A stretch of 63,186 bases of DNA, counting the filler, from Folioceros fuciformis (lineage: Eukaryota): NCBI GenBank assembly GCA_049999805.1. It is 13 parts of 13 records of this genome, joined end to end, with 100 filler letters (N's around TTAATTAATTAA, not from the genome) between each part and the next. Parts side by side here need not be neighbours in the genome. Positions count along the whole stretch, not along the records: positions 54,223 to 59,701 come from JBNGIO010000885.1; 12 more parts are not named here. One strand, written 5' to 3'. Shown here piece by piece: positions 12,214 to 63,186 of the stretch; the stretch's first letter is position 1; each line of letters begins with the position of its first letter. A program made the translations under genes and the position numbers. The notes below the pieces were generated by a model. It saw only the letters and a program-made list of their open reading frames with translations, searched no databases and had not been told where the DNA came from.

Positions 12214-15200
12214 ATGCAGGAGAACCAAAAACTCTGAGATGAAGCAAGCTTGGTTTTCTTCCCCAGAATGATTCATAAGGAGTTTTACCAGGCACAGACT
12301 TTGTCAAAACTCTGTTTAAAACGTAAGTTGCTGTAACTATGGCCTCAGCCCAAAAACGCTTTGACAGTCCTACCCATGAAAGCATGCTTCTAGTCATTCC
12401 CATAAGTGTTTGGTTCTTGCGTTCTGCCACGCCATTTTGCTGCTGTGTATATGGTATAGACAGCTGCCTTGTTATTCCAAACTGATCAAATAATGAATCA
12501 TACTTGTAACTTGCAAATTCTCCTCCATTATCTGACCTCATACACTTAACTGACTTTCCTGTCTGCCTTTGCACCATAGGTATCCAAGATGATATCTTAT
12601 CAAAGGCATCACTTTTCAGCTTGAGAGGAAAAATCCAAGTGTACCTTCTGAAGTCATCAGTCAAGGTTAAATAATACTCAGCTCCTCCTAGAGAAGGTAC
12701 CTCTATCTTTCGCAATGTCCATGTGTATTAATCCTAGAACACCTTCAGCTCTTGTGGCATTTTTGTTCTTAAAAGGCAGTTCCTTTTGTTTAGAAAGGAC
12801 ACATGACTTGCAAACTAGAAGATGCTTAAAACATGAGGGTAACTTTTCTTTATAGAAGTCACCTGTGGACATTACGTCTAGCTTGACCTTATTTACATGC
12901 CCAAGTCTAGCATGCCATAGGTTTGCTAGAGACTTAGATGTAGTAACATTCACAGCTTGACTATGATCTCCCACAGAAAGCTGATAGAGATCATTTTTAA
13001 GTACCTCTAGCTAAACACACACTAGGTTGTGTTATGCTATATAAGCAACAAGAGTCCTTCTCAAAGCGAAAAGCAAATTCTGACATTTGTGTAAGTGCTC
13101 TAATTGACAACAGGTTCTTTGACATATCAGGAACATAAAGTACATCCAGCAATTCAAGAGTGAATTCACTGGAAACAAGTACACTTACTGTTCCACTCCC
13201 AAGTACCTTCGAAGCACGTGAATCTCCCACATACACTGACTGTGGAGATGACTGCCTAGTGAAGGTAGTAAACATGTGACGATTATTACACACATGTGAA
13301 GTCACCCCTGAGTCAATGAACCAAAGAGAGGGATGCTCTATTGTTGAAGTCAAGCAAACAGTCAACACTGTTGAGCTGCTCTTTGGGGCACTGCGAGAAC
13401 TTGAAGATTTGTTGCCTCTTTCAACAACATGAGCTTCAAGCTTTGGCTCCTTCCGAGCTTCTCCTGATTTCTTCTTACGACACTCTCTTTCCCAGTGACC
13501 ATGGAGCTGACACCAATTACAGTTGCCTTGCCTTTTGGGATTTCCAGATGGGGGTTTCTTGCCCTTATCCTTCCCCTTCCCAAAAGGCTTCTTCATTGCA
13601 ACTAACACTTTCTCTGTTCTTACCTTTGCAGAACCAGAAGGCCGATGGTGAGACTGCTCCTCTTGATGGAGAGCTCCCACAAGCTCATTGAAAGTGAGGG
13701 TGGCAGCACCGCCTGCTTTTACTGCGGCAACATAGGTGCGCAAGGCTACATTCTGTGTGGACACAAAGTTTTGGTAGGAGGAAGGAAGACTGGACAACAA
13801 CTGTGCAACAGTGTCTATATCAGATACAGTTCCACCAAGCTGAACAATTTGTTGTCTCAAATATTGGAAGCGAGTAATGTGAGCACTCATAGAATCTCCC
13901 TCCTTCATTCTTAGTCCATAGAATTCATTCCTAGCAGCAACAAAGGTCAATATGTTCCTTACTTGATAGGTGTCATGTAACTGTGTCCAGACATCTGCTG
14001 CAGCTGGTAGGAACTCTACCTCTGTCACTGTGGCCTCATCAAGGCCAGAAAGTAATATGGCAAATGCCAATTTATTACCCTTTTTCCACTTATCAATATC
14101 AGCTTGCTGTGCTGCAGGGCCAGGTTGAGTAATGGTGCCATCCACAAATTCCAAAACATCTCCGGCATCAAGAGGCCTTCATTCTGGCACGCCAACTCTC
14201 AAATCGTTGTGGCTTGCCATCAAAACGATCCCTCTCTTTGAAGTCACCAGAGAATGTGGAAGATGTTGCAGAAGACATATTTGTTGACCCACCGAGTAAA
14301 CTAAATGCAGCAAATTGGGCAACAAGTTGATCTAAGGCAAACATATGCAGCCACAAAGGAAAAAGGTAAACTTGTGAATAGGCTTTTTACTACATACACA
14401 TGAAAAGGCATGTGAGGTAAGCAAGAAACCCATTCCAATTGAAAAATTACCCTAATTTAAAAATTAAATTAAATTAAAGGCCAGAAGCCCTAATTGCTAA
14501 CCAATCAAAAAAGAACTAGACTTGATAGTTGCTGGTGCTTGCTGCAGGCACCCTTTCATCACAACCTTTCAACAAAGACTGTGACCTTTGCTATATGCAA
14601 GTATCAATTGGATTGAGTGCCCAAACTCCCAAGAGTAGGCTTCAAATTTGCTTGTAAATTAGCAAAATTAGATTGATTAGAAGCAAATTGTGTACGTGGA
14701 TTTGAAAATTCATTCAATCTATTAACCCTAGCAGAAATATCTTGCAGAATTAACAGCAACAAGTCCAAACGATCCACCAAAGCCTCAATTCTCTCAGGTA
14801 CTTTATCAAGACAAACAAGCCTATTGAAAATGCGTTGTAGACGATGCCTGGGAAAATTTCCAGCACCACTATCTGCAGCTATTCTATGATTAAATTGTTG
14901 TGCAAGATCTACACGAGGAGTTGTACGTCTGCCCCTTCCAGCACAGAGAAATTGAGGCTCTGTACAGCAAAATAAAAGCAGCATAGAGAAATTGAGGCTA
15001 TGTACGGCAAAATAAAGGCGACAGACGAGGAGATTGCTGCCTTCTCACTATTCTCTGACCTTGGAAGGGATAATTAAACTTTCTAAAGCCATGAGAACAT
15101 TGTTCTCCTCTCCTCCGCGTCATCCTGGATAATTACACTAGCATGATTGCATTTTAGCACTACACGTAGCACACTATGCTAGACTATAGAGAGACAAAGA

Positions 15201-20641: not shown

Positions 20642-23600
20642 TGCCGTAACGAAAAGCTGGTGAGCCTCAGAAACAGGCCAAGCCTACTGCAAGTGTTGCA
20701 GTGAGGGATAGGCCTGTGGAGAAGGCACCAGTCAAGATACTTACCATATGTTTGTCAAGTTCAACATATGATGAAGAAAGCCGGTACTTCGATTCCGGGG
20801 CTACCACGCATATCTGCAACAAGAGGGAGTTGTTTACTTCCCTTAGCCTTGCTCATGTCCATGACAAGGTCTTCTTAGGTGATGAGCAATCTAAGACTAG
20901 CCTGAACATAGAGGGCAGGGGTCAGTGTGTGTTCAAGTTACATGATCACACAAATCTTATACTAGAAGATGTACTCTACGTCCCTAGTATGGCAAAGAAC
21001 CTTCTGTCCATGAGTCAGCTCATGCGTTTAGGTATCTTCTCAATGGTGGCTGACTCCCAACATTGCTTATTCTATAAGAAATCACTTCCTCATAGATGTG
21101 TCTTTAGGGGCATCCTTGCAAACTCATTGTACCCCCTGGATATTGTCTGTACACATACAACATCCAATAGGCACATAGCTCACTCTACTACCACTCCTAC
21201 ACTCACTGCTGAGCAGGAGGCGGTATTGTGGCACGCAAGATTAGGACATGTCAATAGAGGAAAACTGATTGATATGTCCATCACTTAGTGCCATAGAGAG
21301 CCATTGCCTAAATGCTTCAAGGATTTACCTGTGTGTGAGTCATGTATCTTGGCAAAACAGAAGGAATCTCCTTTTCCTAAGGCTGCTGCACAGAGAGCAA
21401 CTCAGGTCCTTGAGTTAGTTCATGCAGATATCTCAGGGAAAATTCATGTGCCTTCTTTAGGGGTTCCCAATACTTCTTCACTCTAACAGATGATTATAGT
21501 AGATATACCTGGACCTTCCCCCTTCGTGTCAAGAATGACACTTTTGAGTGTTTCCGAGATTGGTTCCACGTTGCTCAGAGGCAATCTGGAAAACTGTTAA
21601 AGATACTGAGGTCTGATAATGGAACAGAGTTTGTCAATGCTGCATTTGATGATTTTCTCCAGGAGCATGGTGTGCTTAGGCAACTTACTGTACCCTACAC
21701 ACCACAACAGAACGGAGTGTCAGAAAGGAAAAATCAGACCCTTCTTGGTATAACACGCAGCATGCTGATCTGTGCAAGCTTACCTCAAGGGTACTGGGTA
21801 GAAGCAGTGGTGACTACCACATATATTCTCAACAGGGTATTAACAAGCTCTATTCCACAGAAGACACCATATGAGGTATTTTGGCATAAAAAGCCAAGCC
21901 TCTTACATCTGAGGGTTTTTGGAGCACGAGCTTTTGGCCATATACCTGCTGAGAAAAGAAGGAAGTTAGATCCTCGAGCACAGGGCCTACTTTTTGTAGG
22001 CTACAGTGAAAGGACAAAAGCATACAAACTTTATAATCCGAAGACTGGTGCTATCTTACTAGCACGGAGTGTCACCTTCATTGAGCCTGGAACCCCTACC
22101 TCTCAGCCGTTCCCAGCTCAGTCACAGGATGAGAACATCGTTGAGGAAGACTCTCCATTGGAATTGGATGCAGGAGGAGTTTTTACCACTTATCCACTCG
22201 ATGATATGGATCCTATTGATCCTAAAACTCCTGATGACCTTGCTGACGAGTATGGAGACGATGCTGAGATGGCAGATCCTCCACCAGAAGAGCCTGCTCT
22301 TCGTGACATTGATATTCCAGGTGCTGCTGAAGTCCAGAATGACCTGCACCCGCTACATTATTAGCTTGGTGAGCTAGAAAATACTCACCCTCTTGAGAAC
22401 GAGGTGAATGTTCCTCACATACCAGACTTAGAGGGGGAAGTTACAAATGGACATAACATTCAAACTGATGAGTTACCTACAGAACAGCCTACACTTCGAC
22501 GATCTGCACATCATAGACCACCCCCTGAACAGTGGACAGAGCCACGCTACCAGTCCATTGATTTCCGGCAAACTTCTCTTGCCCAAGCTCCTGCTCTTGA
22601 TACAGTAAGTCCAGATGTCCCTGAGGAGCCTACCACCTTACAGCAGGCCTTCAATGGTCCACAAAGTGAACAGTGGAAGGCTGCAGTGGAGGATGAGTAC
22701 CAGTCTCTTATCAAAAATGAGACGTGGGTACTTGCAGACCTCCCACCTGGAAGGAAGGCCATTAGCTGCAAGTGGGTTTTTAAAATCAAACTCAATGCAC
22801 TTGGACAGGTGGCTCGATATAAAGCAAGGCTTGTGGCTCGTGGGTTTACCCAAGTGGAAGGACTTGATTACCAAGAGGCATTCTCCCTTGTAGTTCGTAC
22901 TCAGTCTATAAGGATTCTCCTCGCCTATGCTACTGAATTTGATCTTGACTTGCAACAGATGGACGTTTGTACCGCCTTTTTGTATGGTACACTTAAGGAG
23001 GAGCTATATATGTTGCAGCCTGAAGCCTACGAAGACAAGCAACATCCAAACCAAGTATTAAAGCTTCTCAAGTGTATATATGGTCTTAAACAAAGTGGAC
23101 GTGTGTGGTATATCACAATGCATTTATACCTGCTCAATATAGACTTCGTCCAGAATGCAGCTGATAGTAATGTGTACAAGCTCACTCGAGGAGAGTCGAT
23201 TGTCATCTTAGCGTTGTACGTGGATGATGTTATATTTGCCACAAACGATCAGAAATTGTTAGCAAGCGTAAAGGAGAAACTCAGCAACAGATTTGACATG
23301 AAGGACATAGGGGAACTGAAGTTCTGTTTGGGAATCCAACTGCTTCGTATAAGACAGGAAGGAAAACTATTTATACATCAGTACAAATACATAAACGAGA
23401 TATTGAAGAAATTTCACCTTGATGAGGCAAGACCAGCCGTTACTCCTTATGCTGCTGGTACGAAGTTAACAAGAGACCAGTGCCCACAATCCCAAGGTCA
23501 GAAAATGGATATGCAGAACATACCTTATCATACCTTATCGTCATGCAGTTGGGTCTTTAATATTCGTTACGAATTGGACTCGACCTAACAAACAGTACGC

Positions 23601-31351: not shown

Positions 31352-31372
31352 TTTAGGGTTTAGGTTTAGGTT

Positions 31373-34300
31373 CCTTTTGGAACTGCAAGATGAAGGATGG
31401 TGAGAGCGTGGAAGATCACGTTATGCGATTTCGCCATCTACGTCAAAAATTAGCATCTGCAGGCACCAAGGTTACTGAATTACAGGCTTTCGTAGCACTG
31501 TTAATGTCACTCCCGGAAAAATACTGGATCTTTGTTAGTACACAAAACAGTAATCTCAAATCTATTGTAGCTGGAGCAGTCTCCTTGTCTAACACAATAG
31601 GTGCCCTCCTTGAGGAGGAGGCAACACTTACCTTGTCCCGGCAGCATGCTTCGCAAAGCAGTAGAGCTCTCTTCTCATCGAGTGGTGGTCGTGGCATTCG
31701 AGGAGGGCGCTATGCCCAATGTGGACGAGGAAGAGGCATGTCTTCAGGGTTTCAAACAAACAAGCACATCATCTATAACTGGCGCAGAATACCTGGGCAT
31801 GTAGAGAATGACTGTAGGAAAAAGAAAGTAGGTGAGCCAAGGAAACTTGCACAAGGAGAAGCAAACATGTCAGTTAAGACCAAGAATGCGTCCACGATAC
31901 TGGCAGTTTACCTTGCTCATGCCAAAGTGGAGAGGAATCGGTGGTTTGTAGATTTTGGAGTGTCCACAAATATCTGCCACTGTAAAAAGGATTTCTCGAC
32001 TTATACTAGCATGGACCCAGGACATTATGTCCTTCTGGGCGATGAAAGTGGTTTACAGATAGCTGGAGTGGGAGAAGTTCCCTTACTCTTGGCAGATGGA
32101 TCAATTCGACATCTGCGAGAAGTGCTCCGCGTTCCACAGATGAGAAAGAATCTCATCTCAGTAAGACAAGTCTGTAAAGACTGGGGTGTAACGATTGAAT
32201 TTGATGATGAAACCTGTTGGTTAAGAGATATGGCCTCAAAGGAGATCTTGATGACTGCAAAAATGGAGTCCGACCTGTATCTGCTTGATTGTACGTCTGC
32301 AAAATCCTCACAAGCAGCTCATGCATATTTGGGGGTCAGGACTCAGTAGAATGATGCCACTTATATCTGGCACTGTAGACTAGGGTACCCTAGTCTCAAA
32401 CGCATGGAGGCCATCTTCAGAGGAAATTTGTATAAGGATACACCCAAGCTAACGCTCTCCATCGAACTATTCTGTGAAGCGTGTGAAATTGCAAAGTCAA
32501 AGTATAAAAGTCCTAAAACATCCAATGCAAGTAAACCTTCAGACCTGCTGGAAGTTGTTCATACAGACTTGTGTGGCCCCATGTCCATTACCTCGCTAGG
32601 TGGATCTCGTTACTTTATGGCTATCACCGATGACTGGAGTCGGTCTATAGTCACTTATTTTCTTCATCTGAAGACGGAAGCGTTGGACAGGTTCTTTGAA
32701 TACCTGTTCTATGCACAACGGTCCACTGGCAGGCAGCTCAAAGCAATTAGAACCGATAACGACGTGGAATTTATCATTGATGCTTTCAATAAGTTTTGCA
32801 CGGAAAGAGGGATAGCTCGACAATTTACTGTGCCATACAACTCCAGCCAGAACGCAATTGCTGAATTGAAAAACAAGTATCTTCAAGAGTGTGCGAGATC
32901 ACTCCTTACTCAATCCAAACTGCATAAAAGGTACTGGGCAGAAGCTGTTCAAACGGCGACTTATTTGCATAATCGACTACCGACCACGGTGTTTGAAGCA
33001 GCCACACTGTTTGAACGCTGGACGGGCCGCAAACCGAGAATAGATCACCTACAGATTTTTGGTGCGCCCATCTATGCTCATGTTCCAGCACAACTTCCAA
33101 GGAAGTTTGATGATAGAGCCAAGAAGCTCATATTTGTGGGATATTCTGAATAGGTCAAAGGTTATAAGACTTATGATCCAGAAACACGTAGTGTTAGCTT
33201 CACACGTTCTGCTAAATTTCATGAACAACAACTGTTCGCCACAGCACCGCAGAGTATTCCTACATTAACTCCATCTATGCCCAGTACTGATGAGCAAGAG
33301 GATGTCTTGGAATTTGAACTTGAAGATGATTCCAGTCTAGGTCCACCTCCGCCTTCATAGATTCCATCCTCTACTGACTCCACTACTGTATTTGATAATG
33401 TCGAAGATTTGTTGGAACCTACAGTTGAGGAGCCACATGAGGAGGTTAGTCAACCGCCTCTACGGCGTTCTACGAGGCATCATACCTCATCTCCCCTTGA
33501 ATGGCATGAGGTTCCCCTTGCTATGTAGGATCATTTGTTCAGTGGGAGTACTCAATTGTCAGTTTCTGACATCCCTTCACATGGTATGGCACTCATGGCC
33601 AAGGCCCTCCTGGCAGCACAAGATTTAGGTGAGCCTGCTACTTTATCCGAAGCTCTAAGTGGCCCTAATAAGGACAAATGGCAAGATGCAGTTAACTCTG
33701 AATATGCATCCATCATCGAAAATCGTACTTGGCAGCTTGTTCCTCTGCCCTCGGGGAGGAGGCCAATTACTTGCCGCTGGGTATTCAAAACAAAGCTAAA
33801 TCTTGACGGCAGCATAGCCAGGTACAAAGCGAGGCTTGTCGTGTGTGGCTTCACTCAATGAGAAGGAATCGATTACTTCGAGACTTTTTCACCTGTTGTC
33901 AAAACGTCGTCAATACGTACCCTCTTAGCATTGGCAGCTTAGGGAGGATTTCTGGTACACCAGATGGATGTTCAAACAGCCTTCCTGAACGGCATTCTCA
34001 AAGAGGAAGTTTACATGTGTCAACCTAAGGGATTTGTAGATAAAAACCGACCTACAGACGTTTGCAAACTGCTGAAAATCTTGTATGGTCTAAAGCAATC
34101 TCCCAAAGAGTGGAACAGAAGACTACATAAGTATCTCCTTTGTAAGGGATTTGTTCAATCTGCCTCTGATAGCTGCATGTACATCTATAGAAAAGGAGAT
34201 CAGGTGACATACCTGGCGGTGTACGTCGACGACACTTTGATACTATCTTCGTCGTCAGCAGTCATGGAGGAGGTTAAGCAAATTCTCAAGTCAAAGTTTA

Positions 34301-54009: not shown

Positions 54010-54456
54010 GTGAGATGAGAACGATATGACATATGGATTGAAGTTGATTCCAGCTTGTTGTAGATGTCTCTGATGGATTGAAAACTTTTGGGTTGAAGTT
54101 GATTCCAGCTTCTTGTAGATGTNNNNNNNNNNNNNNNNNNNNNNNNNNNNNNNNNNNNNNNNNNNNTTAATTAATTAANNNNNNNNNNNNNNNNNNNNNN
54201 NNNNNNNNNNNNNNNNNNNNNNATATATAGATCTCCTGATACCCCCTTGCCCACCAAAGGCCAAGGACAACCTTGGTCGTTCCCGACACTTGATCCTGCT
54301 GCCCCGTTTGGCCAAAACACCATGGTCCAAGGAGACTTTATGTAAAAATACCCAAGTACTAGTCTTAACTAAGCCGTTTTCCTCACACTTTCACACAAAA
54401 AAAAAGTGTCCACGCATCCTGTCACTGAGAAAGAGGTTTCCGAATATTTTTCTCCT

Positions 54457-55380
54457 CTACACAATGTCTAATCCAATCCTTCTTTTCTTGTGAAAGTATG
54501 TTGCTCTAACATCCCCAGGTAAGCCTTCGTAACTAGGCTCATGACATATAGCATTTGAAAGGTTAGTGTGCCTATGTTCAAAAAGGCCAAGCTCAATAAT
54601 CATAGGCCATAGAAGAAGTTTCTTCACCCTAAAATTTGCTTGACATCCATGCTTCATACTCTCTCTGTGCATGACCTTACACTTAGTTGTATAAGCACCA
54701 CAAACCACTCCAACCTCTTTTTTGCAAAAGTCTTCTAGGCCATGAGAACACCAATACTCTCTAGTCCCAATGTTAAAATATTAACACCTCCCTAAATAAT
54801 AAAACAATTTGCATACTTCAAACATTCATACTTGACATATGATGCAATTATAAGCATTGTTGGTATTGTAGGATGAGGTAAACGCCCTTGACCCTTAGAA
54901 TCCTTCTTCCATGAGAACACCAATACCCTCCAGTCCCAACGTAAAAATATTAACACCTCCCTAAGTAATAAACCCTCTAGTCCCAACGTAAAAATATTAA
55001 CACCTCAGTAAGTAATAAAATAATTTGCATACTTCAAACATTTGTACTTGGCATATGATGCAGCTATAAGCACTGTTAATACTGTAGGATAAGGTAAACT
55101 TCCTAGATCCTTAGAAGCATTCTTATAAAAGTTTATAGGGTGGGAGCTTACACTGCTCATTCCCCAATAAAGTCTCCCACTCTACAAAAGGATATGTAAG
55201 CCATCCTCACATGTTTTTGCTGCCCTTGTGCCCTAGAATGGTCATGTTGAGAAGATACCCATTTCAGGTTGGTATGCTTAAATAACCTTAATTTAGGAAG
55301 CTGCACCACAAAAGGTGTGTTAGTTGGTGACTCTTCTAAATTACCATAGAAATTTAAATCCATATCGTTATCCTTCAACC
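54457..55380 (-). mobile_element. Probable MULE-like DNA transposase N-terminal fragment (WRKY/FAR1-type Zn finger)
   Basis: TREYWCSHG...HRESMKHGCQANFRVKK...EHRHTN; internal duplication (about 54760-54910 vs 54975-55125). Confidence 0.5.
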
Positions 55381-55538
55381 CTAAACCTCTATTTCTAATG
55401 ATAAAACCCTAATCCTAACCATAACCCTAATCTCAATCTTGAATAACCATCCTATCCCTAATAACAACACAAGGACGTTTCGCACCTAACAACGTGCACC
55501 TAACAACGTGGGAATGGCAGAGTCTTGGACACACGCCT

Positions 55539-55707
55539 CCCAAGGGTGCACTTGTAACCTTAAAAAAATATTATTAGTACCCCAAGGTTGCACTTGTAAC
55601 CTTAAAAAAATATTATTAGTACCCCAAGGTTACAATTGTAACTTTAAAAAAATATTATTAGTACACCCAAGGTTGCACTTGTAATCTTAAACAAATATTA
55701 TTAGTAC
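55539..55707 (+). repeat. Minisatellite, 4 x about 42 bp
   Basis: Unit CCCAAGGTTGCACTTGTAACCTTAAAAAAATATTATTAGTAC. Confidence 0.95.
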
Positions 55708-56431
55708 CGTGTAAAGGGAGAACAACCACCGGTGTAAACTCCAGGTTTCCGTGTCCCGTGTTGAGAACACTTGTGGCCACCCGTGCGATGCTGCATGACT
55801 TATCATGCTATGGCCATGGGGCAAGAACATAAAGGTACATGTAGCGGGCATGGGGGGCCTCGTGGACACAAGTGCAGGCCTTAATGGCCATCGGGTATCC
55901 ATGTGCAAGCGGCTCGCGCATGCCAGATGGCCCCGTCCATCTAACAACAGAACAACTGTCATGGCGGAAAAGGAATAAAACATGGAAGGGTTTTAGTGTG
56001 TATGGATGCATGGACATCCGATAACAGAACGAACGATCGCGTTTCAATCCTGGGAACAGGCTCTTGCGGGGAGGCGGGGCCTGCACTCACCTGGTACACA
56101 TGCCTGGAATGCATTGTCGTAATATCAATGGCAAAGAACGGTGTTCGAGCCGAACCCACCTCGCCACAGACGAGGACATGCCCCATTTGAGGGCTTCACG
56201 AAAGAACGTGTCGAAGAAATGGTATCCTTGCTGCGCCAAGGTGGCCATCTCTTTGGCAACCATGTTGCGCTGCTTTCCAAGTGCTTGTTTTGGTGTCTAT
56301 TGCCCTGGGTACGCAGTGGAAGACAGCTCGCACTATCCCGCAGGGCCATGCGATCGTACACAGTGCCTGCCCATCCTGCCATAGTTTGTTGTTAGACTCA
56401 TCTTCTATCTTCCGACAGAGGTCCCTGAACG

Positions 56432-59400
56432 ATGGCCAAAGTGTGGCGACCGGACCCGTTTTGGACCCCACAGATTGGTTTGCGCTCAGGGATTCTTCAA
56501 GGAGATGCCGCTCATCTCACTGTTGGGAATAATCTCCCGGCGAACAACCAGGCCTGTAGGTGCAGCAGTGTAAGGAGCGCAGCACTCCCCCTTCCCACAG
56601 CGTGTGTCGGTGGGGGCGGGGTCTTCAGTGAATGTCGTCGCCAGGAGCAGGAGCACTTGTGGCAACGATTTTTCCTGGAACCTACCATGTGGCGGGACAA
56701 CAGACGGGATAAAAAGAGCTCCCGCTCGCCTGACTTCCGGCGTAAGGGGTCCGGCGAGGTCCTGTGGTTAAACAGCATGTTCAAGCCAGCTTGGGTTGAT
56801 GAGCAGCTGGTTTCCTTGGACGTGCAGATGGGTCATGGTGAATTTCATTCCAAGCGGGCCTCTACAGATAACAGTGGACCTGGGACGCGGTCAGGATCGG
56901 AAGGTGACGTCGTTACGGCTGGAACTGTGAGCATGTTATGTCAGGAGGGTAAGCTTTCTGAGGCTGTTGGAGCCCTGGAATCTTTGGCGCAGACAGACTC
57001 TTCTATTTCTCAGTCTCTGTTGTACACCGTGCTAAAGCTGTGTACAGCGAGGAAGAATTTGGGCGTGGGGCGACGAGTTCATGACCTGACCGTTAAACTT
57101 GGGTACGAGTCGAATGCGTACTTGGGGAACCACATCTTGCGCATGTATGCATTCGGAGGTAGGCTGAAGGAGGCCATGGATGTGTTCACCAGGGTGACCA
57201 AACCTGATCCCTTCATGTGGTTTTCCATCATCTCTGCACATGCTAAACATGGGAAACCTGAAGAGGCCATACAATTGTACCATGCTATGTGTAGGTCAGG
57301 AGTGAAGGCAAATGGTCACGTCTTTGTCGCTGCCCTTCAGGCTTGTGCATTGGCCGCTGACTTGGAAACTGGGAGAAAGGTTCACTGTGATGTGTTGCAC
57401 AGTGGCATTCCTACCAACTTGTTTGTTGGCAACGGCCTGGTGGACATGTATGCAAAGTGTGGAGAACTGCAAGATGCACTCCTGGTTTTTGAAAGCATGA
57501 CCACAAAGGATGTGGTGACATGGACGGCGCTGATTGCGGGCTATGCGCAGCAAGGGCTCAGCCAAGAGGCGCTCCTTCTGTATGAGCGAATGGAACAGGA
57601 GGGCCTGATTGTGGCTAACCATGTTACTTTTGCTTGTCTTCTCAAGGCCTGTGCAAGCATTGGTGCTTTGCAGAAAGGCAGGGAGCTGCATGCCCGGATT
57701 CTCAAACGAGGACTGCTGGATGACATACTGGTGGGCACATGCCTGGTGGACATGTATGCAAAATGTGGGAAACTGGAAGATGCACACATGGTTTTTGATG
57801 GGTTGGCCAAAAAAAATGTGGTTACATGGACGGTCCTGCTTGCAGGGTATGCCCAGCAAGGGCTCGGACATGAGGCACTCGTTGTGTACAAACGAATGGA
57901 GCAGGAGGGGGTCATTTTGGCCGACCATGTGACTTTTGCTTTCCTTCTGAAGGCCTGTGCAAGTGCCGGTGACTTACAGAAGGGCAGGCATCTGCACTCA
58001 CAGATTGTGGAACAAGGACATCTAGGTAATGTACTGGTGGCCAACTGCCTGGTGGACATGTATGCGAAATGCGGTGAAGTGGAATATGCACGCCAGGTAT
58101 TTGAAAGCATGGCCACCAAGGATGTGGTGACATGGACGGTACTGATTGGTGGGTATTCCCATCAGGGCCTGGGACATGAGGCACTTGTAGTCTATGAACA
58201 AATGGAGGAAGAGGGCGTGAGTTTGGCTAACCATGTGACTTTCGCTTGCCTTCTTAAAGCTTGTGCAAGCAGCGGCGCCTTACAGAAGGGGAGGCAACTA
58301 CACTCACGAATCGTTGAAAGAGGACTGTTGCACAACGTGGTGTTGGGCAACTGCCTGGTGGATATGTATGCAAAATGTGGTGAACTGGACGAGGCTCGCG
58401 AGGTTTTCGACAACTTGGCCACGAAGGACGTGGTGACATGGACAGCGCTGATTGCTGGGTATGCCCAGCAAGGGCTTGGACATGAAGCACTCGCTGTCTA
58501 TGGACAAATGGAGCAGGAGGGCCTGATTGTGGCTAACGATGTTACCTTTGCTTGCCTTCTTAAGGCCTGTGGCCTCGCCGGTGCGTTACAGATGGGCAGG
58601 CATCTGCACTCACAGATTGTGGAGAGAGGACTGCTGGATGTAGTGTTGGGGAACTGCTTGGTGGACATGTATGCGAAATGTGGTGAAGTGGAAGATGCAC
58701 GGCAGGTTTTTGACGGCATGGCCACAAAAGACGTGGTGACGTGGACCGCCCTGATATCTGGGTATGGTGCTTGTGATGAAGGCGTCAAGGCACTGGCTTG
58801 TTTTGAGGATATGTTAGTTGCGGGTATTCAGCCTAACGAGACAACTTTCACTTGCCTTTTGGTAGCATGCAGTCATGAGGGACTGGTCGACGAGGGTCGC
58901 AAGCACTTTGATTCCATGGCTGAACAGCACGGCATCAAACCTACTGTCGAGCATTACCTTTGCATGATTGAGCTTCTTGGGCGTGCAGGCCATTTAGATG
59001 AGGCAGAGAAGATGCTATTATCATGTGAGGGCCAGACTAATTTTGTGGGCCTGACGTCATTATTAAATGCCTGCAAAAGTCATGGGGATATAGATAGGGC
59101 GATGTGGTGTTTTGATAGCATTGTAAAGCTGGACCCTCAGCGGGCGTCGTCTTATGTGCTCATGGCTAAGGCGTACGCAGATGCAGGTAGGTGGGCCGAT
59201 GTAGACAGAATTGAAACACAGAGAATGGTAGCCGGAGCTAACAAGAAACCTGCAGTGGCAACGGTTGAGGTGAATAAGCAGGTACACAGATTTCTGGTTG
59301 GAGAAAGAAGGGAGGATATTGCACAAATGGTGGAGAGCACGAATATACGTCTGAAGAAGGAAGGAGGCCACGTACCTCACACAAAGTTGGTGTTGAAGCC

Positions 59401-59647
59401 AGTGTGTGAGAAGGAAAAGGAAGACGCACTTTGTGGGCATGCTGAGAAGCTAGCTCTGGCGTTTGGGCTCTTGAACACTCCGAGTGGGACGCCTCTGGTA
59501 GTAACGAAGAATCTACGGATGTGCAGTGACTGCCACAGTTCCACGGAGATCATGTCAAGGATTGAACAGAGAGACATTGTTGTAAGGGATGGGTACCGTG
59601 TGCATCGATTCGCAAATGGTTGTTGCAGTTGTAAAGGTCGACCCTGA
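56432..59647 (+). CDS. PLS-class pentatricopeptide repeat protein with E1-E2 and a DYW:KP (GRP-type) domain; candidate U-to-C organellar RNA editing factor
   Basis: Intact 1071-aa ORF; about 21 PPR motifs in P-L-S triplets ending P2-L2-S2, then E1, E2, then KKPAVATVEV (in place of the PG box), HAEKLA, CSDCH and terminal CSCKGRP*. The true start codon is uncertain. Confidence 0.96.
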   Translation: MAKVWRPDPFWTPQIGLRSGILQGDAAHLTVGNNLPANNQACRCSSVRSAALPLPTACVGGGGVFSECRRQEQEHLWQRFFLEPTMWRDNRRDKKSSRSPDFRRKGSGEVLWLNSMFKPAWVDEQLVSLDVQMGHGEFHSKRASTDNSGPGTRSGSEGDVVTAGTVSMLCQEGKLSEAVGALESLAQTDSSISQSLLYTVLKLCTARKNLGVGRRVHDLTVKLGYESNAYLGNHILRMYAFGGRLKEAMDVFTRVTKPDPFMWFSIISAHAKHGKPEEAIQLYHAMCRSGVKANGHVFVAALQACALAADLETGRKVHCDVLHSGIPTNLFVGNGLVDMYAKCGELQDALLVFESMTTKDVVTWTALIAGYAQQGLSQEALLLYERMEQEGLIVANHVTFACLLKACASIGALQKGRELHARILKRGLLDDILVGTCLVDMYAKCGKLEDAHMVFDGLAKKNVVTWTVLLAGYAQQGLGHEALVVYKRMEQEGVILADHVTFAFLLKACASAGDLQKGRHLHSQIVEQGHLGNVLVANCLVDMYAKCGEVEYARQVFESMATKDVVTWTVLIGGYSHQGLGHEALVVYEQMEEEGVSLANHVTFACLLKACASSGALQKGRQLHSRIVERGLLHNVVLGNCLVDMYAKCGELDEAREVFDNLATKDVVTWTALIAGYAQQGLGHEALAVYGQMEQEGLIVANDVTFACLLKACGLAGALQMGRHLHSQIVERGLLDVVLGNCLVDMYAKCGEVEDARQVFDGMATKDVVTWTALISGYGACDEGVKALACFEDMLVAGIQPNETTFTCLLVACSHEGLVDEGRKHFDSMAEQHGIKPTVEHYLCMIELLGRAGHLDEAEKMLLSCEGQTNFVGLTSLLNACKSHGDIDRAMWCFDSIVKLDPQRASSYVLMAKAYADAGRWADVDRIETQRMVAGANKKPAVATVEVNKQVHRFLVGERREDIAQMVESTNIRLKKEGGHVPHTKLVLKPVCEKEKEDALCGHAEKLALAFGLLNTPSGTPLVVTKNLRMCSDCHSSTEIMSRIEQRDIVVRDGYRVHRFANGCCSCKGRP

Positions 59648-59897
59648 CAATGTGGCAGAAGCAGCGAGTGCGCAAGTTTGTATCTTAGAGAACATTGGCG
59701 TNNNNNNNNNNNNNNNNNNNNNNNNNNNNNNNNNNNNNNNNNNNNTTAATTAATTAANNNNNNNNNNNNNNNNNNNNNNNNNNNNNNNNNNNNNNNNNNN
59801 NCAGCTGTGCTGAAGGATGCTGTGACCAGTATGGAACCAAGCTGCACTGGGGTTGCAGCACCTCTGGATGCCTGAATCTTATGAATGACACCTGTCC

Positions 59898-62800
59898 ATG
59901 TCATACAGAAATTGGCGCAACAGAATTCCATTGCGCAAGACACCTAAGAGGCCTAATCAGGATCCTTCTTTGCTACCACTAGCAGTAGATCCTTTAGGAC
60001 TTGCACACCAACCTGCTCAGTCAGCAGCATCGGTGGGGAGTACCAATGTTGTACCTGCAAATTTACTAGCAGCACAATTAGCTCATGTAGTACAGGCTGT
60101 TTTCATACCTCAGCAAACACAAGTAGGACAGGTGACCCAAGCTGCCAATGCAGCACTAGCAGCACAACTAATCACAACATTTAGCACAATGGGTACTCCA
60201 CAAAATATCACCAACAACACAACTGTGAATAACATTAAAATAGACTTTAAGGAAAAAGACAGATTTACAGGTTCACAGTTTGACATATGGTCTCTTCGGG
60301 TTCAGACCATCCTGAAAGAGCATGATTTATGGGAGGTTGTTGATGGAACCTCTGTAAAACCTGCAGCAGGTTCACCACCTGCTGACATTGCAGCATGGGT
60401 TAAGAAGGACTTACGAGCATTGGGAGTTATTCAGTCCGCGCTTGATGGGACGATGATGCATCACACGAGAGATGCAGCATCAACAAAGGCCGTCTGGGAC
60501 TCTCTTTCTCAAGTATACCAGGTTGTGAATGGTACATCCTTGGTTTGTGCAACCCGGGACTTCTACAACTGCAAAATGCGGGAAGGTGAATCAGTCGAGC
60601 AGCACGTCATTAAGTTTAGGCAACTAAGGTCAAAACTTACCTCAAGTGGCACCACCACTACTGAGATGCAGGCCGCTGTGGCTCTACTATTGTCACTTCC
60701 TGAAAGCTATCGAACATTCGTTAGCAATTACAGCACATCTCTTCGTCAAATAGGGCTGGCCACACCAGCAGGCCAGCTTCCTCCTGTTACACTATCTGAC
60801 CTCATTGGTGCTCTTCTTGAAGAAGAGTCTACTAGGCATACAAGCAAGGGTGGTTCTCACAAGGGAGACCACATTAATAGGGTGCTTTACACTAAAGGCC
60901 CTCAGAGGCAACCTCCACGACAAGCTTGGCCTGCTAGTAGCAGCAGTGGTAACACTAAGAAGAAACCAAGTGCTGCCACCACTAAGAAAAAAGGCACCTG
61001 CAACTGGTGCTTGATTCCTGGACATTGGGAAGCTGAGTGTAGAAAGAAAAAGGCTGGAGAGCCTAAAAGGACTGCACCTCCTGAAACCAATGTGGTACTT
61101 CGAAAAACCAACACCATACTTGCAGTCTGCCTTGTCTCATCTGTATCAGATAAGCACATCTGGTTCTTAGACTCCGGAGCCTCTGCACATATTTGTCATA
61201 CAAAGGATTCCTTTGACAACTATAGACCAGTGCAACCTGGACAGTCAGTCAAGCTGGGGGATGACAGAGGTCTTACCATAGAAGGAGTCGGTACAGTTCC
61301 AGTTGTCCTTGCAGATAAGACAACTATCCATCTTAGTGATGTGTTACATGTGCCTGACATGGCAAAGAATCTAGTGTCTATACGTAGGTTCACAGCTCAA
61401 CATCCTCTTGACATCTCGTTCAGTAGAGATGAATGTCACATTACTGATCCACGGTTGGGAGACAAAGTAGTTGCAGTTGGTACCCCACTGCATGACCTGT
61501 ACAAGGTCAACTTTACCTCCAAGTTTGGCACACGTCCTGCAAGAGCACATGTGCATGTCAGTCAAGAGGAAAAACAACAGCAGCAGGCCATGCTATGGCA
61601 CTGCCGCCTGGCTCATGTCAACTTTGACAAACTAAAAACTATGGTGGCCAGTAACAATCTGTATAGAGAAAAATTTATGCTCAAGTTTGCAGACAAGCAG
61701 TTCTGCGAATCATGTGTCTTCGGCAAACACAAGAGGCTACCCTATGCTGATAAGAATCCTACAAGAGCAACTAAGTTGCTGGAGCTCGTACATACTGACC
61801 TATGTGGCCCCATGTCCACAGCCACCTTTGGAGGTGCACTCTATATTCTGTCCTTTTTAGATGACTGGAGCCGCTATGTGGTAGTATACCTGCTCAAACA
61901 CAAAAGCCAAGCCTTGAGCCGCTTCCAGGAGTACGTTCCCTATGCACAAAGACAAACAGGCCAACTAATTAAGTGCCTTCGCAGTGATGGAGGAGGTGAG
62001 TTCTGTTCAAATGCTTTTGAGGAATACTGTAAGGACCTGGGGATAAGCAGACAATACACTGTACCTTACACATCTTCTCAAAACCCTCTTGCCGAGTTGA
62101 ACAATAGACACCTTCAAGAAGCTGCTAAGTCTTTGCTTCAGTTTTCTGGTTTATCACGGGGTTACTGGGGTGAGGCAGTTGTAACAGCTGCATATGTCAG
62201 AAATAGGCTACCCACAAAAGCCTTTGAGGGTGCTACTCCATTTCAGAGATGGACTAATCATAGACCAAGGATCAATCATCTGAGGATCTTCGGGTCGCCT
62301 GCGTATGCACACCTTGCAGAAAAACAACGCAGGAAGTTAGATTACAAATCCCGTAAGTATGTGTTTATTGGTTACACAGAAGGAATTAAAGGGTATAAAT
62401 TATATGACCCAGTGTCTAGAACCACCACACATGCTAGGAGTGTAATCTTTAATGAGCAGCTGCTGTTACATCCACCTACAGCCAATGCACCTCAGCAGAA
62501 CCCTACCTCAGACCAAGCTGATGAGCCTCATGACATCACCTTAGAAACTGGAACTATGTCTACATCTCAGACTTGTGCACAGCAGCAACAGATTAGAGTA
62601 CCCCAGTCCTCTACACCATCATCCAGTCAGGCCCCACACCCATCTATGGATACTGACCTCTCAGATGACGATGACGAGCCAAGTGTGTTCCCTGACAATG
62701 ATAGTGAAGGGGAGGAGCCAGTCTCCTTTGAATCTGTGCACAATGCAAGTGATGGTGAGGAAGATCAGCCACATACAGAAACAGCAGCAGCAGAAAGTGC

Positions 62801-63186
62801 ACCTGAACCTGAACTTAGAAGGAGCAACCGAGTGCATACCTCTTCTCCAGCTGAGTGGAAGGAGCCACCACTTACATACAAAAGCTTTCTAGTCCAAGAG
62901 GATGCTGATCCCATGGATGCAGGAGACCCTCAGTCCTACCAAGAGGCTCTAAATTCACCAGATAAAGAAAAATGGAAGGAGGCCATAGAGTCTGAGTATA
63001 AATCTATTATGGATAACAAAACGTGGGTTCTTGAGGATCTCCCTGCAGGAAGGAAGGCTGTGACATGCAAATGGGTCTTCAAGACCAAGTTGGGAGCGGA
63101 TGGGTCCATAGCCCGATACAAAGCAAGACTTGTAGCACATGGCTACAGTCAGGTAGAAGGGCTAGATTACACAGAAACTTTCTCTC
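59898..63186 (+). mobile_element. Ty1/Copia gag-pol, uninterrupted to the window end (gag, CCHC, protease, integrase, start of RT)
   Basis: ATG 59898 (alternative 60189) is in the same frame as YKARLVAHGY at 63117. Motifs CNWCLIPGHWEAEC, WFLDSGASAHIC, LWHCRLAH, VHTDLCGPM, RSDGGGEF. The ORF track lists no terminated ORF in this frame, consistent with no stop. Confidence 0.93.

What the first reader, a model, noticed from the sequence alone, without database searches (positions are those of the whole stretch)
59243..59647. DYW:KP / GRP-terminal domain: candidate reverse (U-to-C) RNA editing enzyme
Seen: the C-terminal domain has KKPAVATVEV where C-to-U editors have KKxPGxSWIE, HAEKLA in place of HSEKLA, an intact CxxC, a shortened gating region and a GRP end in place of DYW. 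Established: this DYW:KP variant is confined to hornworts, some lycophytes and ferns, the lineages with U-to-C editing, and engineered DYW:KP proteins have shown U-to-C activity; the amination chemistry is still poorly understood. Inference: this is an intact natural U-to-C editor. The class is known, but this member is probably uncharacterised.
Basis: partly seen in the sequence, partly recalled or inferred. Interest (0 to 1): 0.8.

Follow-up and report, generated by a model that had tools for sequence, protein, structure and literature searches.

The report
Natural GRP-type DYW:KP editing factor gene
This is an intact plant nuclear gene for an RNA-binding repeat protein whose end domain is the rare variant linked to "reverse" uridine-to-cytidine RNA editing in organelles; it is one more member of a known class, and it also carries an unexpected DNA-binding-type motif at its front end.

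Summary
Window 56432-59647 (+) is one uninterrupted 1071-codon ORF. It encodes a presequence, an OSB-type PDF motif (aa 72-128), about 21 PLS-type PPR motifs, E1, E2 and a 133-aa DYW domain (aa 939-1071).

The DYW domain carries every DYW:KP mark I could check:
- KPA box and HAE.
- Lys88 (K1026) and Met92.
- Gating region 4 residues shorter than in OTP86.
- Both zinc sites intact.
- GRP end, and Glu in place of the Lys four residues after CxxCH.

In a tree it sits in a GRP clade (SH-aLRT 97) inside a DRH+GRP clade (96), apart from canonical DYW domains (99). It scores 51 bits higher on a home-made KP HMM than on a PG HMM.

The papers I read assign GRP and DRH variants to hornworts. They report that consensus GRP designs (KP2, KP3) edit U-to-C in E. 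coli.

So the gene is very probably a native U-to-C editing factor, but target, expression and activity are untested. It is a new member of a known, large family; interest is moderate.

The N-terminal PDF motif is shared with organellar ssDNA-binding OSB proteins. My literature searches found no paper linking it to PPR proteins. The window is an artificial join of 13 contigs.

The parts
54223..59701 (.). The real contig that holds the gene. It is bounded by N44-TTAATTAATTAA-N44 linkers.
   Evidence: N runs listed; linker letters read.
56432..59647 (+). Intronless ORF of 1071 codons plus TGA (P0001). An in-frame stop lies directly upstream at 56429-56431.
56432..56644 (+). aa 1-71: N-terminal extension without a family match, net basic. 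Presumed organelle presequence (inference, not tested).
   Evidence: 0 Pfam families for aa 1-159. Homologues P0002 and P0004 also have about 60-80 residues before the motif.
56645..56815 (+). aa 72-128: OSB-type PDF motif (LWxxFF..P..W.DNR.DKK....PDFR.K....LWL...KPAWV).
   Evidence: HMM from A2 hits aa 72-128 at 7.4e-30. 55% identity over 56 aa to a PDF motif of a protein named OSB1, E 1e-17. Profile searches. AlphaFold2 pLDDT 93.4.
56909..59041 (+). aa 160-870: PLS-class PPR tract of about 21 motifs, in order P-L-S, P-L-S, 4 x (P1 36 aa, L1 34-35 aa, S1 31 aa), P2-L2-S2.
   Evidence: Pfam PPR families (PPR 2.6e-100, PPR_2 3.7e-94). Motif borders set by hand.
57428..58766 (+). 306-bp tandem period x 4.4, 77% matches. 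These are the S1-P1-L1 units of the tract.
   Evidence: Pairwise dN/dS between units is 0.11-0.30.
59042..59245 (+). E1 (aa 871-904) and E2 (aa 905-938) motifs.
   Evidence: Pfam E_motif PF20431 at aa 884-946, 2.4e-11. Borders set by hand.
59246..59644 (+). DYW:KP domain, GRP subtype, 133 aa (aa 939-1071).
59246..59254 (+). KPA box (K939 P940 A941), in place of the xPG of C-to-U editors.
59285..59437 (+). Gating region H952-G1002: 51 aa against 55 in OTP86.
   Evidence: definition from PMC7611903.
59438..59446 (+). H1003-A1004-E1005: Zn1 ligand, the KP-type Ala, and the catalytic Glu.
59507..59509 (+). K1026 = Lys88 of the DYW:KP numbering = OTP86 K915. M1030 (Met92) follows in KNLRMC.
   Evidence: Position counted. 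Role taken from PMC11845758, PMC11713852 and PMC7611903.
59522..59536 (+). C1031-S-D-C1034-H1035: two Zn1 ligands and the first Zn2 ligand. E1039 lies four residues after H1035, where other DYW domains have Lys.
   Evidence: (column 101). PMC9478123 passage on K103 to Glu in GRP proteins.
59603..59632 (+). H1058 ... C1065-S-C1067: the remaining Zn2 ligands (OTP86 H947, C954, C956 by equal spacing).
59636..59644 (+). G1069-R1070-P1071 end, in place of D-Y-W.

Best explanation
The locus is an intact, intronless nuclear gene of a seedless land plant, most likely a hornwort. It encodes a PLS-class pentatricopeptide-repeat RNA editing factor whose catalytic end is a DYW:KP domain of the GRP subtype.

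**Inferred mechanism.**
- After import into a plastid or mitochondrion, the roughly 21 PPR motifs bind about 20 nucleotides of single-stranded RNA just 5' of one or a few target uridines.
- By the PPR code and the usual register (both recalled, not from a call), the P and S motifs predict 5'-U n n U A n A G n U A n U A n U A n n-3' at positions -22 to -4.
- The DYW:KP domain then converts the uridine to cytidine. Its active site has Zn1 held by H1003, C1031 and C1034, plus E1005 and K1026.
- In the current model K1026 (Lys88) attacks C4 of the uracil. This gives a Schiff-base RNA-protein intermediate that is resolved to cytidine.

**The PDF motif.** An N-terminal motif homologous to the ssDNA-binding motif of OSB proteins probably adds unspecific single-strand nucleic-acid affinity. 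This is hypothesis.

**Shown here:** gene integrity, domain architecture, class and subclass membership, conservation of all named catalytic and zinc residues, and the deaminase fold.

**Inferred:** organelle targeting, the target sequence, U-to-C direction, and the PDF role.
For: **Integrity.** A 1071-codon ORF with no stop. Its internal PLS units differ at dN/dS 0.11-0.30.

**Architecture.** PPR, E_motif and DYW_deaminase Pfam hits.

**Class features** (table of 209 DYW domains). P0001 has KPA, HAE, K88, M92 and a 133-aa length, like the KP-type rows. Most rows with a DYW or DFW end have xPG, HSE, V or I at position 92, and 136 aa.

**Subclass.**
- GRP end, and Glu at the Lys position four residues after CxxCH. 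This Glu is shared with GRP rows P0003 and P0004.

**Tree** (109 rows).
- The window protein lies in a clade of all 5 GRP rows (SH-aLRT 97).
- That clade sits inside a 21-row DRH+GRP clade (96), on a 42-row KP side (92).
- A separate 43-row clade (99) holds all 34 DYW/DFW-ended rows together with 9 rows with other ends.
- With the nine diagnostic columns removed (box columns 1-3, HxE middle residue, position 92, position 101, last three columns), it still joins GRP rows (4 rows, 98) in the same 21-row clade (96).

**Home-made HMMs**. 204.6 bits on a KP model built from 37 rows with no GRP row, against 153.1 bits on a PG model built from 133 rows.

**Fold.** AlphaFold2 pLDDT 85.2. Best Foldseek matches are 9kfx_A (1.4e-16), OTP86 DYW 7o4e/7o4f (1e-10 to 1e-12) and DYW1 7w86.

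**Function of the class.**
- Consensus GRP designs KP2 and KP3 edited U-to-C at about 26% and 22% in E. coli, with no C-to-U detected (PMC9478123).
- Lys88 is essential for U-to-C (PMC11845758; PMC11713852 abstract).
Against: - No activity, target or expression was shown here. The one run of the same organism that may be RNA is only guessed to be RNA.
- The organelle genome of the source could not be reached, so the predicted binding site is unmatched.
- In the papers I read, every tested DYW:KP enzyme is a synthetic consensus. None of them reports a native DYW:KP enzyme assayed individually. I read passages and abstracts only, not whole texts.
- The synthetic enzymes stall as RNA-protein crosslinks in bacteria, and KP6 (a fern-type design) also edits C-to-U (PMC11332814 Discussion).
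- The gene belongs to a very large family of close paralogues: thousands of contigs at 90-95% identity in runs of three organisms. It lies on a 5.5-kb unplaced contig. A redundant or recently disabled copy therefore cannot be excluded.
- The start codon and targeting peptide are inferred.
Confidence: 0.75

Rival explanations
1. The protein is a C-to-U editor or a dual editor rather than a dedicated U-to-C editor. The KP-type active site keeps everything needed for hydrolytic deamination.
For: - KP6 edits C-to-U in vitro and in human cells.
- K88A variants of KP2 and KP3 edit C-to-U at about 81% and 76% (PMC11845758 passages; PMC11332814).
- The window protein has HxE, CxxC and both zinc sites intact.
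Against: - It keeps Lys88. The papers say Lys88 restrains C-to-U and is required for U-to-C.
- The GRP designs KP2 and KP3 showed no C-to-U in E. coli.
- It clusters with GRP and DRH rows, not with PG rows.
Confidence: 0.12
2. It is a redundant or decaying copy of a recently amplified family. The reading frame is still open, but the gene is not expressed or has no essential target.
For: - Thousands of paralogous contigs at 90-95% identity.
- The gene sits on a short unplaced contig. Four of the other 12 contigs I sampled hold copia-type ORFs.
- PMC13386178 (passages) describes retroposition-like, TE-flanked expansion of intronless PPR genes in hornworts.
Against: - 1071 codons without a stop, and all catalytic and zinc residues kept.
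- dN/dS is well below 1 between internal units.
- P and S motif code residues are canonical combinations: 6 ND, 6 TN and 1 TD out of 16 P and S motifs.
Confidence: 0.1
3. It acts mainly as a sequence-specific RNA-binding or RNA-crosslinking factor (stabilising, blocking or marking a transcript). It would not turn over as an enzyme, as seen for the stalled synthetic KP proteins.
For: - KP2, KP3 and KP6 remain covalently linked to RNA in bacteria.
- The authors raise the possibility of suicide enzymes (PMC11332814 Discussion).
Against: - The same paper reports that U-to-C edited RNAs in the fern Ceratopteris are not crosslinked in planta (abstract).
- The conserved Glu and zinc sites argue for completed catalysis.
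Confidence: 0.03

Closest known systems
Designer PPR-DYW:KP proteins KP2 and KP3 (consensus of hornwort GRP-type domains; Ichinose et al. 2022, PMC9478123)
   Same: GRP-ended DYW:KP domain with HAE, Lys88 and Met92, and Glu in place of the conserved Lys after CxxCH. PLS-E1-E2-DYW architecture. The U-to-C direction is expected on this basis.
   Different: - Those are artificial consensus sequences on a short designer PLS tract of three triplets, aimed at Arabidopsis rpoA. This is a native gene with about 21 motifs, its own unknown target, a presequence and an N-terminal PDF motif.
- I did not have the KP2 and KP3 sequences, so identity to them was not measured.
Natural hornwort DYW:KP candidates of the GRP and DRH subgroups (Gerke et al. 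2020 and Gutmann et al. 2020; not held in the library, known to me only through PMC9478123 and recall)
   Same: It clusters with unnamed GRP- and DRH-ended proteins at 55-69% identity over the E2-DYW region. Same feature set.
   Different: - The nearest relative found is only 69% identical over aa 870-1071 (P0002), so this is a distinct paralogue.
- Whether it is already catalogued in those surveys could not be checked. Their text and supplements were not available.
DYW:PG cytidine deaminase domains, for example Arabidopsis OTP86 (PDB 7O4E/7O4F) and DYW1 (7W86)
   Same: - Same fold (Foldseek 1e-10 to 1e-12).
- Same Zn1 and Zn2 ligand spacing, catalytic Glu and active-site Lys.
   Different: - KPA instead of PG.
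- HAE instead of HSE.
- Met instead of Val in KNLRxC.
- Gating region 4 residues shorter.
- GRP instead of DYW.
- About 38-46% identity to the five DYW/DFW-ended rows of A3.
[quoted passage not shown]
   Same: - aa 75-130 are 55% and 48% identical to the two PDF motifs of a protein named OSB1.
- A profile built only from PPR proteins finds an OSB-like protein at 9.7e-19.
- A wider profile finds 166 proteins (120 listed), many of them named OSB1-4.
   Different: - There is no OB-fold/SSB domain here (no PF00436).
- The motif is N-terminal to a PPR tract instead of C-terminal to an OB fold.
- So the protein shares a module with OSBs but is not an OSB.

Membership tests
PLS-class PPR-E1-E2-DYW RNA editing factors | Tandem P, L and S pentatricopeptide motifs | tested here: met
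   Pfam PPR 2.6e-100, PPR_2 3.7e-94, PPR_1 5e-63. 306-bp (102-aa) P1-L1-S1 period. Hand segmentation.
PLS-class PPR-E1-E2-DYW RNA editing factors | E1/E2 motifs followed by a DYW-family deaminase domain with HxE...CxxC | tested here: met
   E_motif 2.4e-11 and DYW_deaminase 3.8e-33. H1003-A-E1005 and C1031-x-x-C1034.
PLS-class PPR-E1-E2-DYW RNA editing factors | Second (structural) zinc site: H after CxxC, H in HxF, CxC near the end | tested here: met
   H1035, H1058, C1065 and C1067 have the same spacing as OTP86 H924, H947, C954 and C956. This rests on alignment only; no metal was modelled.
PLS-class PPR-E1-E2-DYW RNA editing factors | Import into plastids or mitochondria and editing of an organelle transcript | not testable with these tools
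   No targeting predictor, no organelle genome of the source, and no confirmed RNA data.
DYW:KP subclass | Lys-Pro pair at the start of the domain in place of Pro-Gly | tested here: met
   K939 P940 A941. Definition from PMC11845758.
DYW:KP subclass | Ala (or Cys) instead of Ser between the zinc His and the catalytic Glu | tested here: met
   HAE. Definition from PMC11845758 and PMC11332814.
DYW:KP subclass | 3-4 residue deletion and a domain length of 132-133 aa | tested here: met
   133 aa. 4-residue gap against OTP86 and 3-residue gap against 9kfx. Definitions.
DYW:KP subclass | Conserved Lys88 in the active site (also present in PG domains, so necessary but not diagnostic) | tested here: met
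   K1026 is residue 88 of the domain.
DYW:KP subclass | Groups with KP rather than PG domains by phylogeny and profile score | tested here: met
   - Trees.
- KP HMM 204.6 bits against PG HMM 153.1 bits.
- The HMMs are my own, built from hits. They are not the published DYW:PG, DYW:WW and DYW:KP models, which I did not have. No WW model was built.
DYW:KP subclass | Host belongs to a lineage with U-to-C editing (hornworts, lycophytes, ferns) | tested here: inconclusive
   - The organism is coded and unnamed.
- The nearest named relatives are from a lycophyte and ferns at 48-53% identity.
- The closest unnamed relatives end in GRP or DRH, which PMC9478123 assigns to hornworts.
DYW:KP subclass | U-to-C editing activity | not testable with these tools
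   Needs expression with a target and cDNA sequencing.
GRP subgroup of DYW:KP | Ends in Gly-Arg-Pro; the conserved Lys four residues after CxxCH is replaced (Glu); forms its own clade | tested here: met
   - GRP end.
- E1039 (column 101: E in P0001, P0003 and P0004; T in P0002; Q in P0006; K in most other rows, with a few exceptions).
- Clade of 5 of 5 GRP rows, SH-aLRT 97.
[quoted passage not shown] | PDF motif | tested here: met
[quoted passage not shown] | N-terminal OB-fold / SSB-like domain | tested here: not met
   No PF00436 or other OB-fold hit in P0001. The protein is therefore not filed as an OSB.

The most novel reading that the evidence does not exclude
The N-terminal OSB-type PDF motif is a functional single-strand nucleic-acid-binding module that a subset of seedless-plant PPR editing factors has recruited. 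The fusion occurs in both KP- and PG-type factors, in one to three copies. It may not have been described before. It may help native editors capture RNA or nucleoid-associated nascent transcripts. It may even help finish the U-to-C reaction that the PDF-less synthetic KP designs fail to complete.
Probability: 0.25. Interest if true: 0.6.

Novelty: new member of a known kind. Interest (0 to 1): 0.4.

Why it matters
U-to-C editing is the only known enzymatic uridine-to-cytidine conversion in RNA, and its chemistry is unsettled. In the papers I read, the tested DYW:KP enzymes are synthetic consensus designs. They stall as covalent RNA-protein adducts in bacteria, and the authors ask whether native sequences behave differently (PMC11332814).

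An intact native GRP-type gene with all catalytic residues is a concrete test object for that question. It is, however, one of many such genes in hornwort genomes, so the gene itself is not a surprise.

The PDF-PPR fusion is the less expected element. It links the RNA-editing family to a motif so far discussed for organelle DNA maintenance, and it has a confident predicted fold with no solved relative.

Tried and rejected
**Whole-genome search.** No genome is held for this window. Counts of KP and PG genes in the source genome, and a search of its organelle DNA for the predicted target, were therefore not possible.

**Expression.**
- No RNA holder is listed.
- Run X3 of the same organism is only guessed to be RNA. 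It holds exact pieces at 56104-56427, 56791-57146, 57298-57418 and 58505-58633.
- This cannot be told apart from DNA, so nothing is concluded from it.
- The laid contigs were otherwise swamped by paralogues at 90-95% identity and gave no usable joints.

**Other look-ups that found nothing.**
- Earlier findings of this scan: nothing by place, words or sequence.
- ESM Atlas with the PDF region: no usable hit.
- PDB sequence search with the PDF profile: 0 hits.
- Foldseek of the PDF model: best E-value 6. VIA-align wide: best Z 4.2, which is not meaningful.
- Pfam on aa 1-159 at E up to 10: 0 families.
- tblastn of the protein against the rest of the window: 0 hits outside the gene, so there is no second PPR gene here.

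**Literature.**
- 'PDF motif' plus 'pentatricopeptide' found only one review, which does not link the two.
- 'PDF domain' plus 'pentatricopeptide' found 0 papers.
- PMC13386178, which surveys domain fusions of editing factors, has 0 occurrences of 'OSB'.
- The two key family surveys (Gutmann 2020, Gerke 2020) did not turn up in my searches of the library, and supplements are closed. A prior mention of the fusion, or of this gene, cannot be excluded.

**Rejected idea.** The copia element downstream (59898-63185) is not a genomic neighbour of the gene. A linker separates them.

Full report
**1. What is in the sequence**

Window 56432-59647 (+) is a single ORF of 1071 codons that ends in TGA. An in-frame stop lies immediately before its first ATG.

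Pfam finds PPR-family repeats along most of it (PPR 2.6e-100, PPR_2 3.7e-94). It also finds an E motif (aa 884-946, 2.4e-11) and a DYW-family deaminase domain (aa 979-1069, 3.8e-33).

The C-terminal 165 residues match the sequences of three solved DYW structures:
- a synthetic PPR-DYW protein, 9kfx, at 8.3e-45;
- DYW1, 7w86, at 8.8e-30;
- OTP86, 7o4e, at 2.8e-28.

**2. Anatomy**

I set the motif borders by hand from the printed sequence, using the usual PLS motif lengths (recalled). The layout is:

| Residues | Element |
|---|---|
| 1-71 | extension with no family match |
| 72-128 | PDF motif (see section 5) |
| 160-870 | about 21 PPR motifs |
| 871-904 | E1 |
| 905-938 | E2 |
| 939-1071 | DYW domain, 133 residues |

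The PPR motifs run P-L-S, P-L-S, four P1(36)-L1(34-35)-S1(31) triplets, then P2-L2-S2.

The central triplets form a 306-bp tandem period (4.4 copies, 77% matches, 57428-58766). Pairwise dN/dS between the units is 0.11-0.30, so the units have been kept under constraint.

Counting K939 as residue 1 of the domain:
- HAE is residues 65-67.
- The lysine of KNLRMC is residue 88 (K1026).
- The methionine is residue 92.

These are exactly the numbers the DYW:KP papers use for Lys88 and M92 (PMC11845758 and PMC9478123, passages).

By equal spacing with OTP86 (PMC7611903 passages):
- Zn1 ligands are H1003, C1031 and C1034.
- Zn2 ligands are H1035, H1058, C1065 and C1067.
- K1026 corresponds to OTP86 K915.

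The stretch corresponding to the OTP86 gating domain (H837-G891, 55 residues) is H952-G1002, 51 residues. In alignment A3 the missing residues are the S/T-H-P-Q stretch of the PG-type rows.

**3. Class and subclass**

I collected relatives in two searches:
- 77 proteins at E <= 0.001 among 521 candidates.
- 2656 proteins at E <= 0.001 in the representative library, with the best 150 listed.

Of the 230 proteins then held, 222 matched the domain. I kept the 209 that covered it nearly end to end and dropped 13 partial ones.

The feature table splits cleanly:
- Rows with KPA-like boxes have HAE, Met92, 125-133 residues (mostly 132-133) and ends other than DYW.
- Most rows with a DYW or DFW end have xPG, HSE, Val or Ile at position 92, and 136 residues.
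- The window protein has the full KP set.
- It also has Glu at the position four residues after CxxCH, where most other rows have Lys. GRP rows P0003 and P0004 share this Glu (P0002 has T, P0006 has Q).

PMC9478123 says that hornwort DYW:KP proteins fall into DRH and GRP variants. It also says that in GRP proteins the terminal Asp is lost and the partner Lys is replaced by Glu.

The maximum-likelihood tree had 109 rows. These were all 75 rows without a DYW or DFW end, plus 34 of the 134 rows with one. I had drawn 35 at random and removed the aberrant P0078, so 100 DYW/DFW rows were left out. Results:
- The window protein lies in a clade of all 5 GRP rows (SH-aLRT 97).
- That clade lies inside a 21-row clade of DRH-like and GRP rows (96).
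- This sits on a 42-row KP side (92).
- A separate 43-row clade (99) holds all 34 DYW/DFW-ended rows together with 9 rows with other ends.

Removing the nine diagnostic columns (box columns 1-3, HxE middle residue, position 92, position 101, last three columns) leaves it with GRP rows (4 rows, 98) in the same 21-row clade (96). This was a quick search on few columns. Many forks are unresolved, but these branches are supported.

Two HMMs of my own gave 204.6 bits on the KP model and 153.1 bits on the PG model. The KP model used the 37 KP-side rows without any GRP row. The PG model used 133 rows. These are not the published models, and no DYW:WW model was available.

An AlphaFold2 model of the last 150 residues has pLDDT 85.2 and pTM 0.76. 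It matches 9kfx, OTP86 and DYW1 best, and more distantly other cytidine deaminases.

**4. What it most likely does**

From the papers read:
- Consensus GRP designs KP2 and KP3 converted a targeted U to C at about 26% and 22% in E. coli, without detectable C-to-U.
- Lys88 is essential for U-to-C, and its loss switches the enzymes to C-to-U.
- The current model has the lysine attacking C4 of uracil to form a Schiff-base adduct.
- Synthetic enzymes stay stuck at that adduct in bacteria, whereas edited fern RNAs are not crosslinked in planta.

The window gene has every residue these papers name. I therefore read it as a native organellar U-to-C editing factor, with confidence about 0.75 for the function. 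The classification itself is near certain.

Using the P and S code pairs and the S2-at-minus-4 register (established conventions, recalled here), the 5th and last residues of the motifs give 6 ND, 6 TN and 1 TD. They predict 5'-U n n U A n A G n U A n U A n U A n n-3' at -22 to -4. I could not test this, because no organelle sequence of the source was reachable.

**5. The N-terminal PDF motif**

Residues about 72-128 are conserved in several relatives: P0002, P0004 and P0008 (alignment A1).

Evidence that this is the OSB PDF motif:
- A profile built only from these four PPR proteins found a 402-aa Bertholletia protein at 9.7e-19. That protein is 54% identical over 297 residues to a protein named OSB2.
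- A wider profile (A2) found 166 proteins at E <= 0.001, with 120 listed. Many are named OSB1, OSB2, OSB3 or OSB4, and some carry the SSB domain PF00436.
- The window residues are 55% identical over 56 positions to one PDF motif of a protein named OSB1 (E 1e-17), and 48% identical to its other motif.

The motif was defined in OSB proteins. There it is reported to be sufficient for ssDNA binding in OSB1 (PMC6963530 passages).

The same motif precedes PPR tracts in other seedless plants:
- 9 of the 120 listed rows are PPR proteins. They include a Diphasiastrum protein with three copies and a Ceratopteris protein.
- 8 of the 209 DYW-domain proteins carry it. Four are KP type and four are PG type, one of these from the liverwort Calypogeia. 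Many Logan-derived proteins are N-terminally incomplete, so this is a lower bound.

AlphaFold2 gives a confident model (pLDDT 93.4): helix, short strands, helix. It has no meaningful solved relative.

My searches found no paper that connects the motif with PPR proteins. The main family surveys did not turn up in those searches, and supplements are closed.

The window protein has no OB fold, so it is not an OSB. It shares one module with them. A role in unspecific single-strand binding is a hypothesis.

**6. Context and caveats**

The window is not a natural stretch of chromosome. Twelve N44-TTAATTAATTAA-N44 linkers join 13 short contigs. The gene's own contig is 54223-59701, and only 54 bases follow the stop. 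The copia-type polyprotein ORF at 59898-63185 and the other copia fragments lie on other contigs. There is no other PPR gene in the window.

Laying contigs of four runs showed thousands of pieces at 90-95% identity in three organisms. The gene therefore belongs to a very large family of close paralogues. This fits the reported expansion of PPR genes in hornworts (PMC13386178). The same family size leaves room for redundancy or recent inactivation.

The source organism is coded. 'Hornwort' is inferred from the GRP and DRH relatives. The nearest named relatives (a lycophyte and ferns, 48-53% identity) fall outside the 21-row clade.

**7. Verdict**

Its interpretation is supported as far as sequence analysis can go.

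The gene is a new member of a known kind, a native GRP-type DYW:KP factor. It is useful as a test object because, in the papers I read (passages and abstracts only), only synthetic consensus enzymes had been assayed. It is not surprising in itself.

The PDF-PPR fusion is the element most worth a follow-up.

Noticed in passing
window 3659-59801 (12 linkers, e.g. 59702-59801): The window is an artificial join of 13 short contigs (about 3-7 kb each). They are separated by N44-TTAATTAATTAA-N44 six-frame-stop linkers, so gene neighbourhoods across linkers are not real.
   Followed up: yes
window 4654-5385 (-), 12997-14178 (-), 21414-23588 (+), 31357-33153 (+), 59898-63185 (+): Ty1/copia-type retrotransposon ORFs (gag, Pol beta-barrel, integrase, RVT_2) on five of the joined contigs. 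The one at 59898-63185 is a long open polyprotein frame that runs off the window.
   Followed up: partly
window 56324-59700: Contigs of runs from three coded organisms lay on the gene by the thousand at 90-95% identity, including on the PDF-motif region. This points to a very large family of close paralogues shared by related species.
   Followed up: partly
window 56645-56815 (aa 72-128): OSB-type PDF motif at the N-terminus of a PPR editing factor. The same fusion, in 1-3 copies, occurs in PPR proteins of a liverwort, a lycophyte, a fern and unnamed sources. The confident AlphaFold2 model has no solved structural relative.
   Followed up: yes
window 57428-58766: Four S1-P1-L1 units of 306 bp are 76-79% identical in DNA and 65-72% in protein, with dN/dS 0.11-0.30. 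P1 motifs are 36 residues (ending ...EGLIVAN) instead of the usual 35.
   Followed up: partly
P0223, P0237, P0239 (proteins): Long PPR proteins (1159-1374 aa) without a DYW domain carry three tandem PDF motifs at the N-terminus, mirroring the multi-PDF architecture of group III OSB proteins.
   Followed up: no
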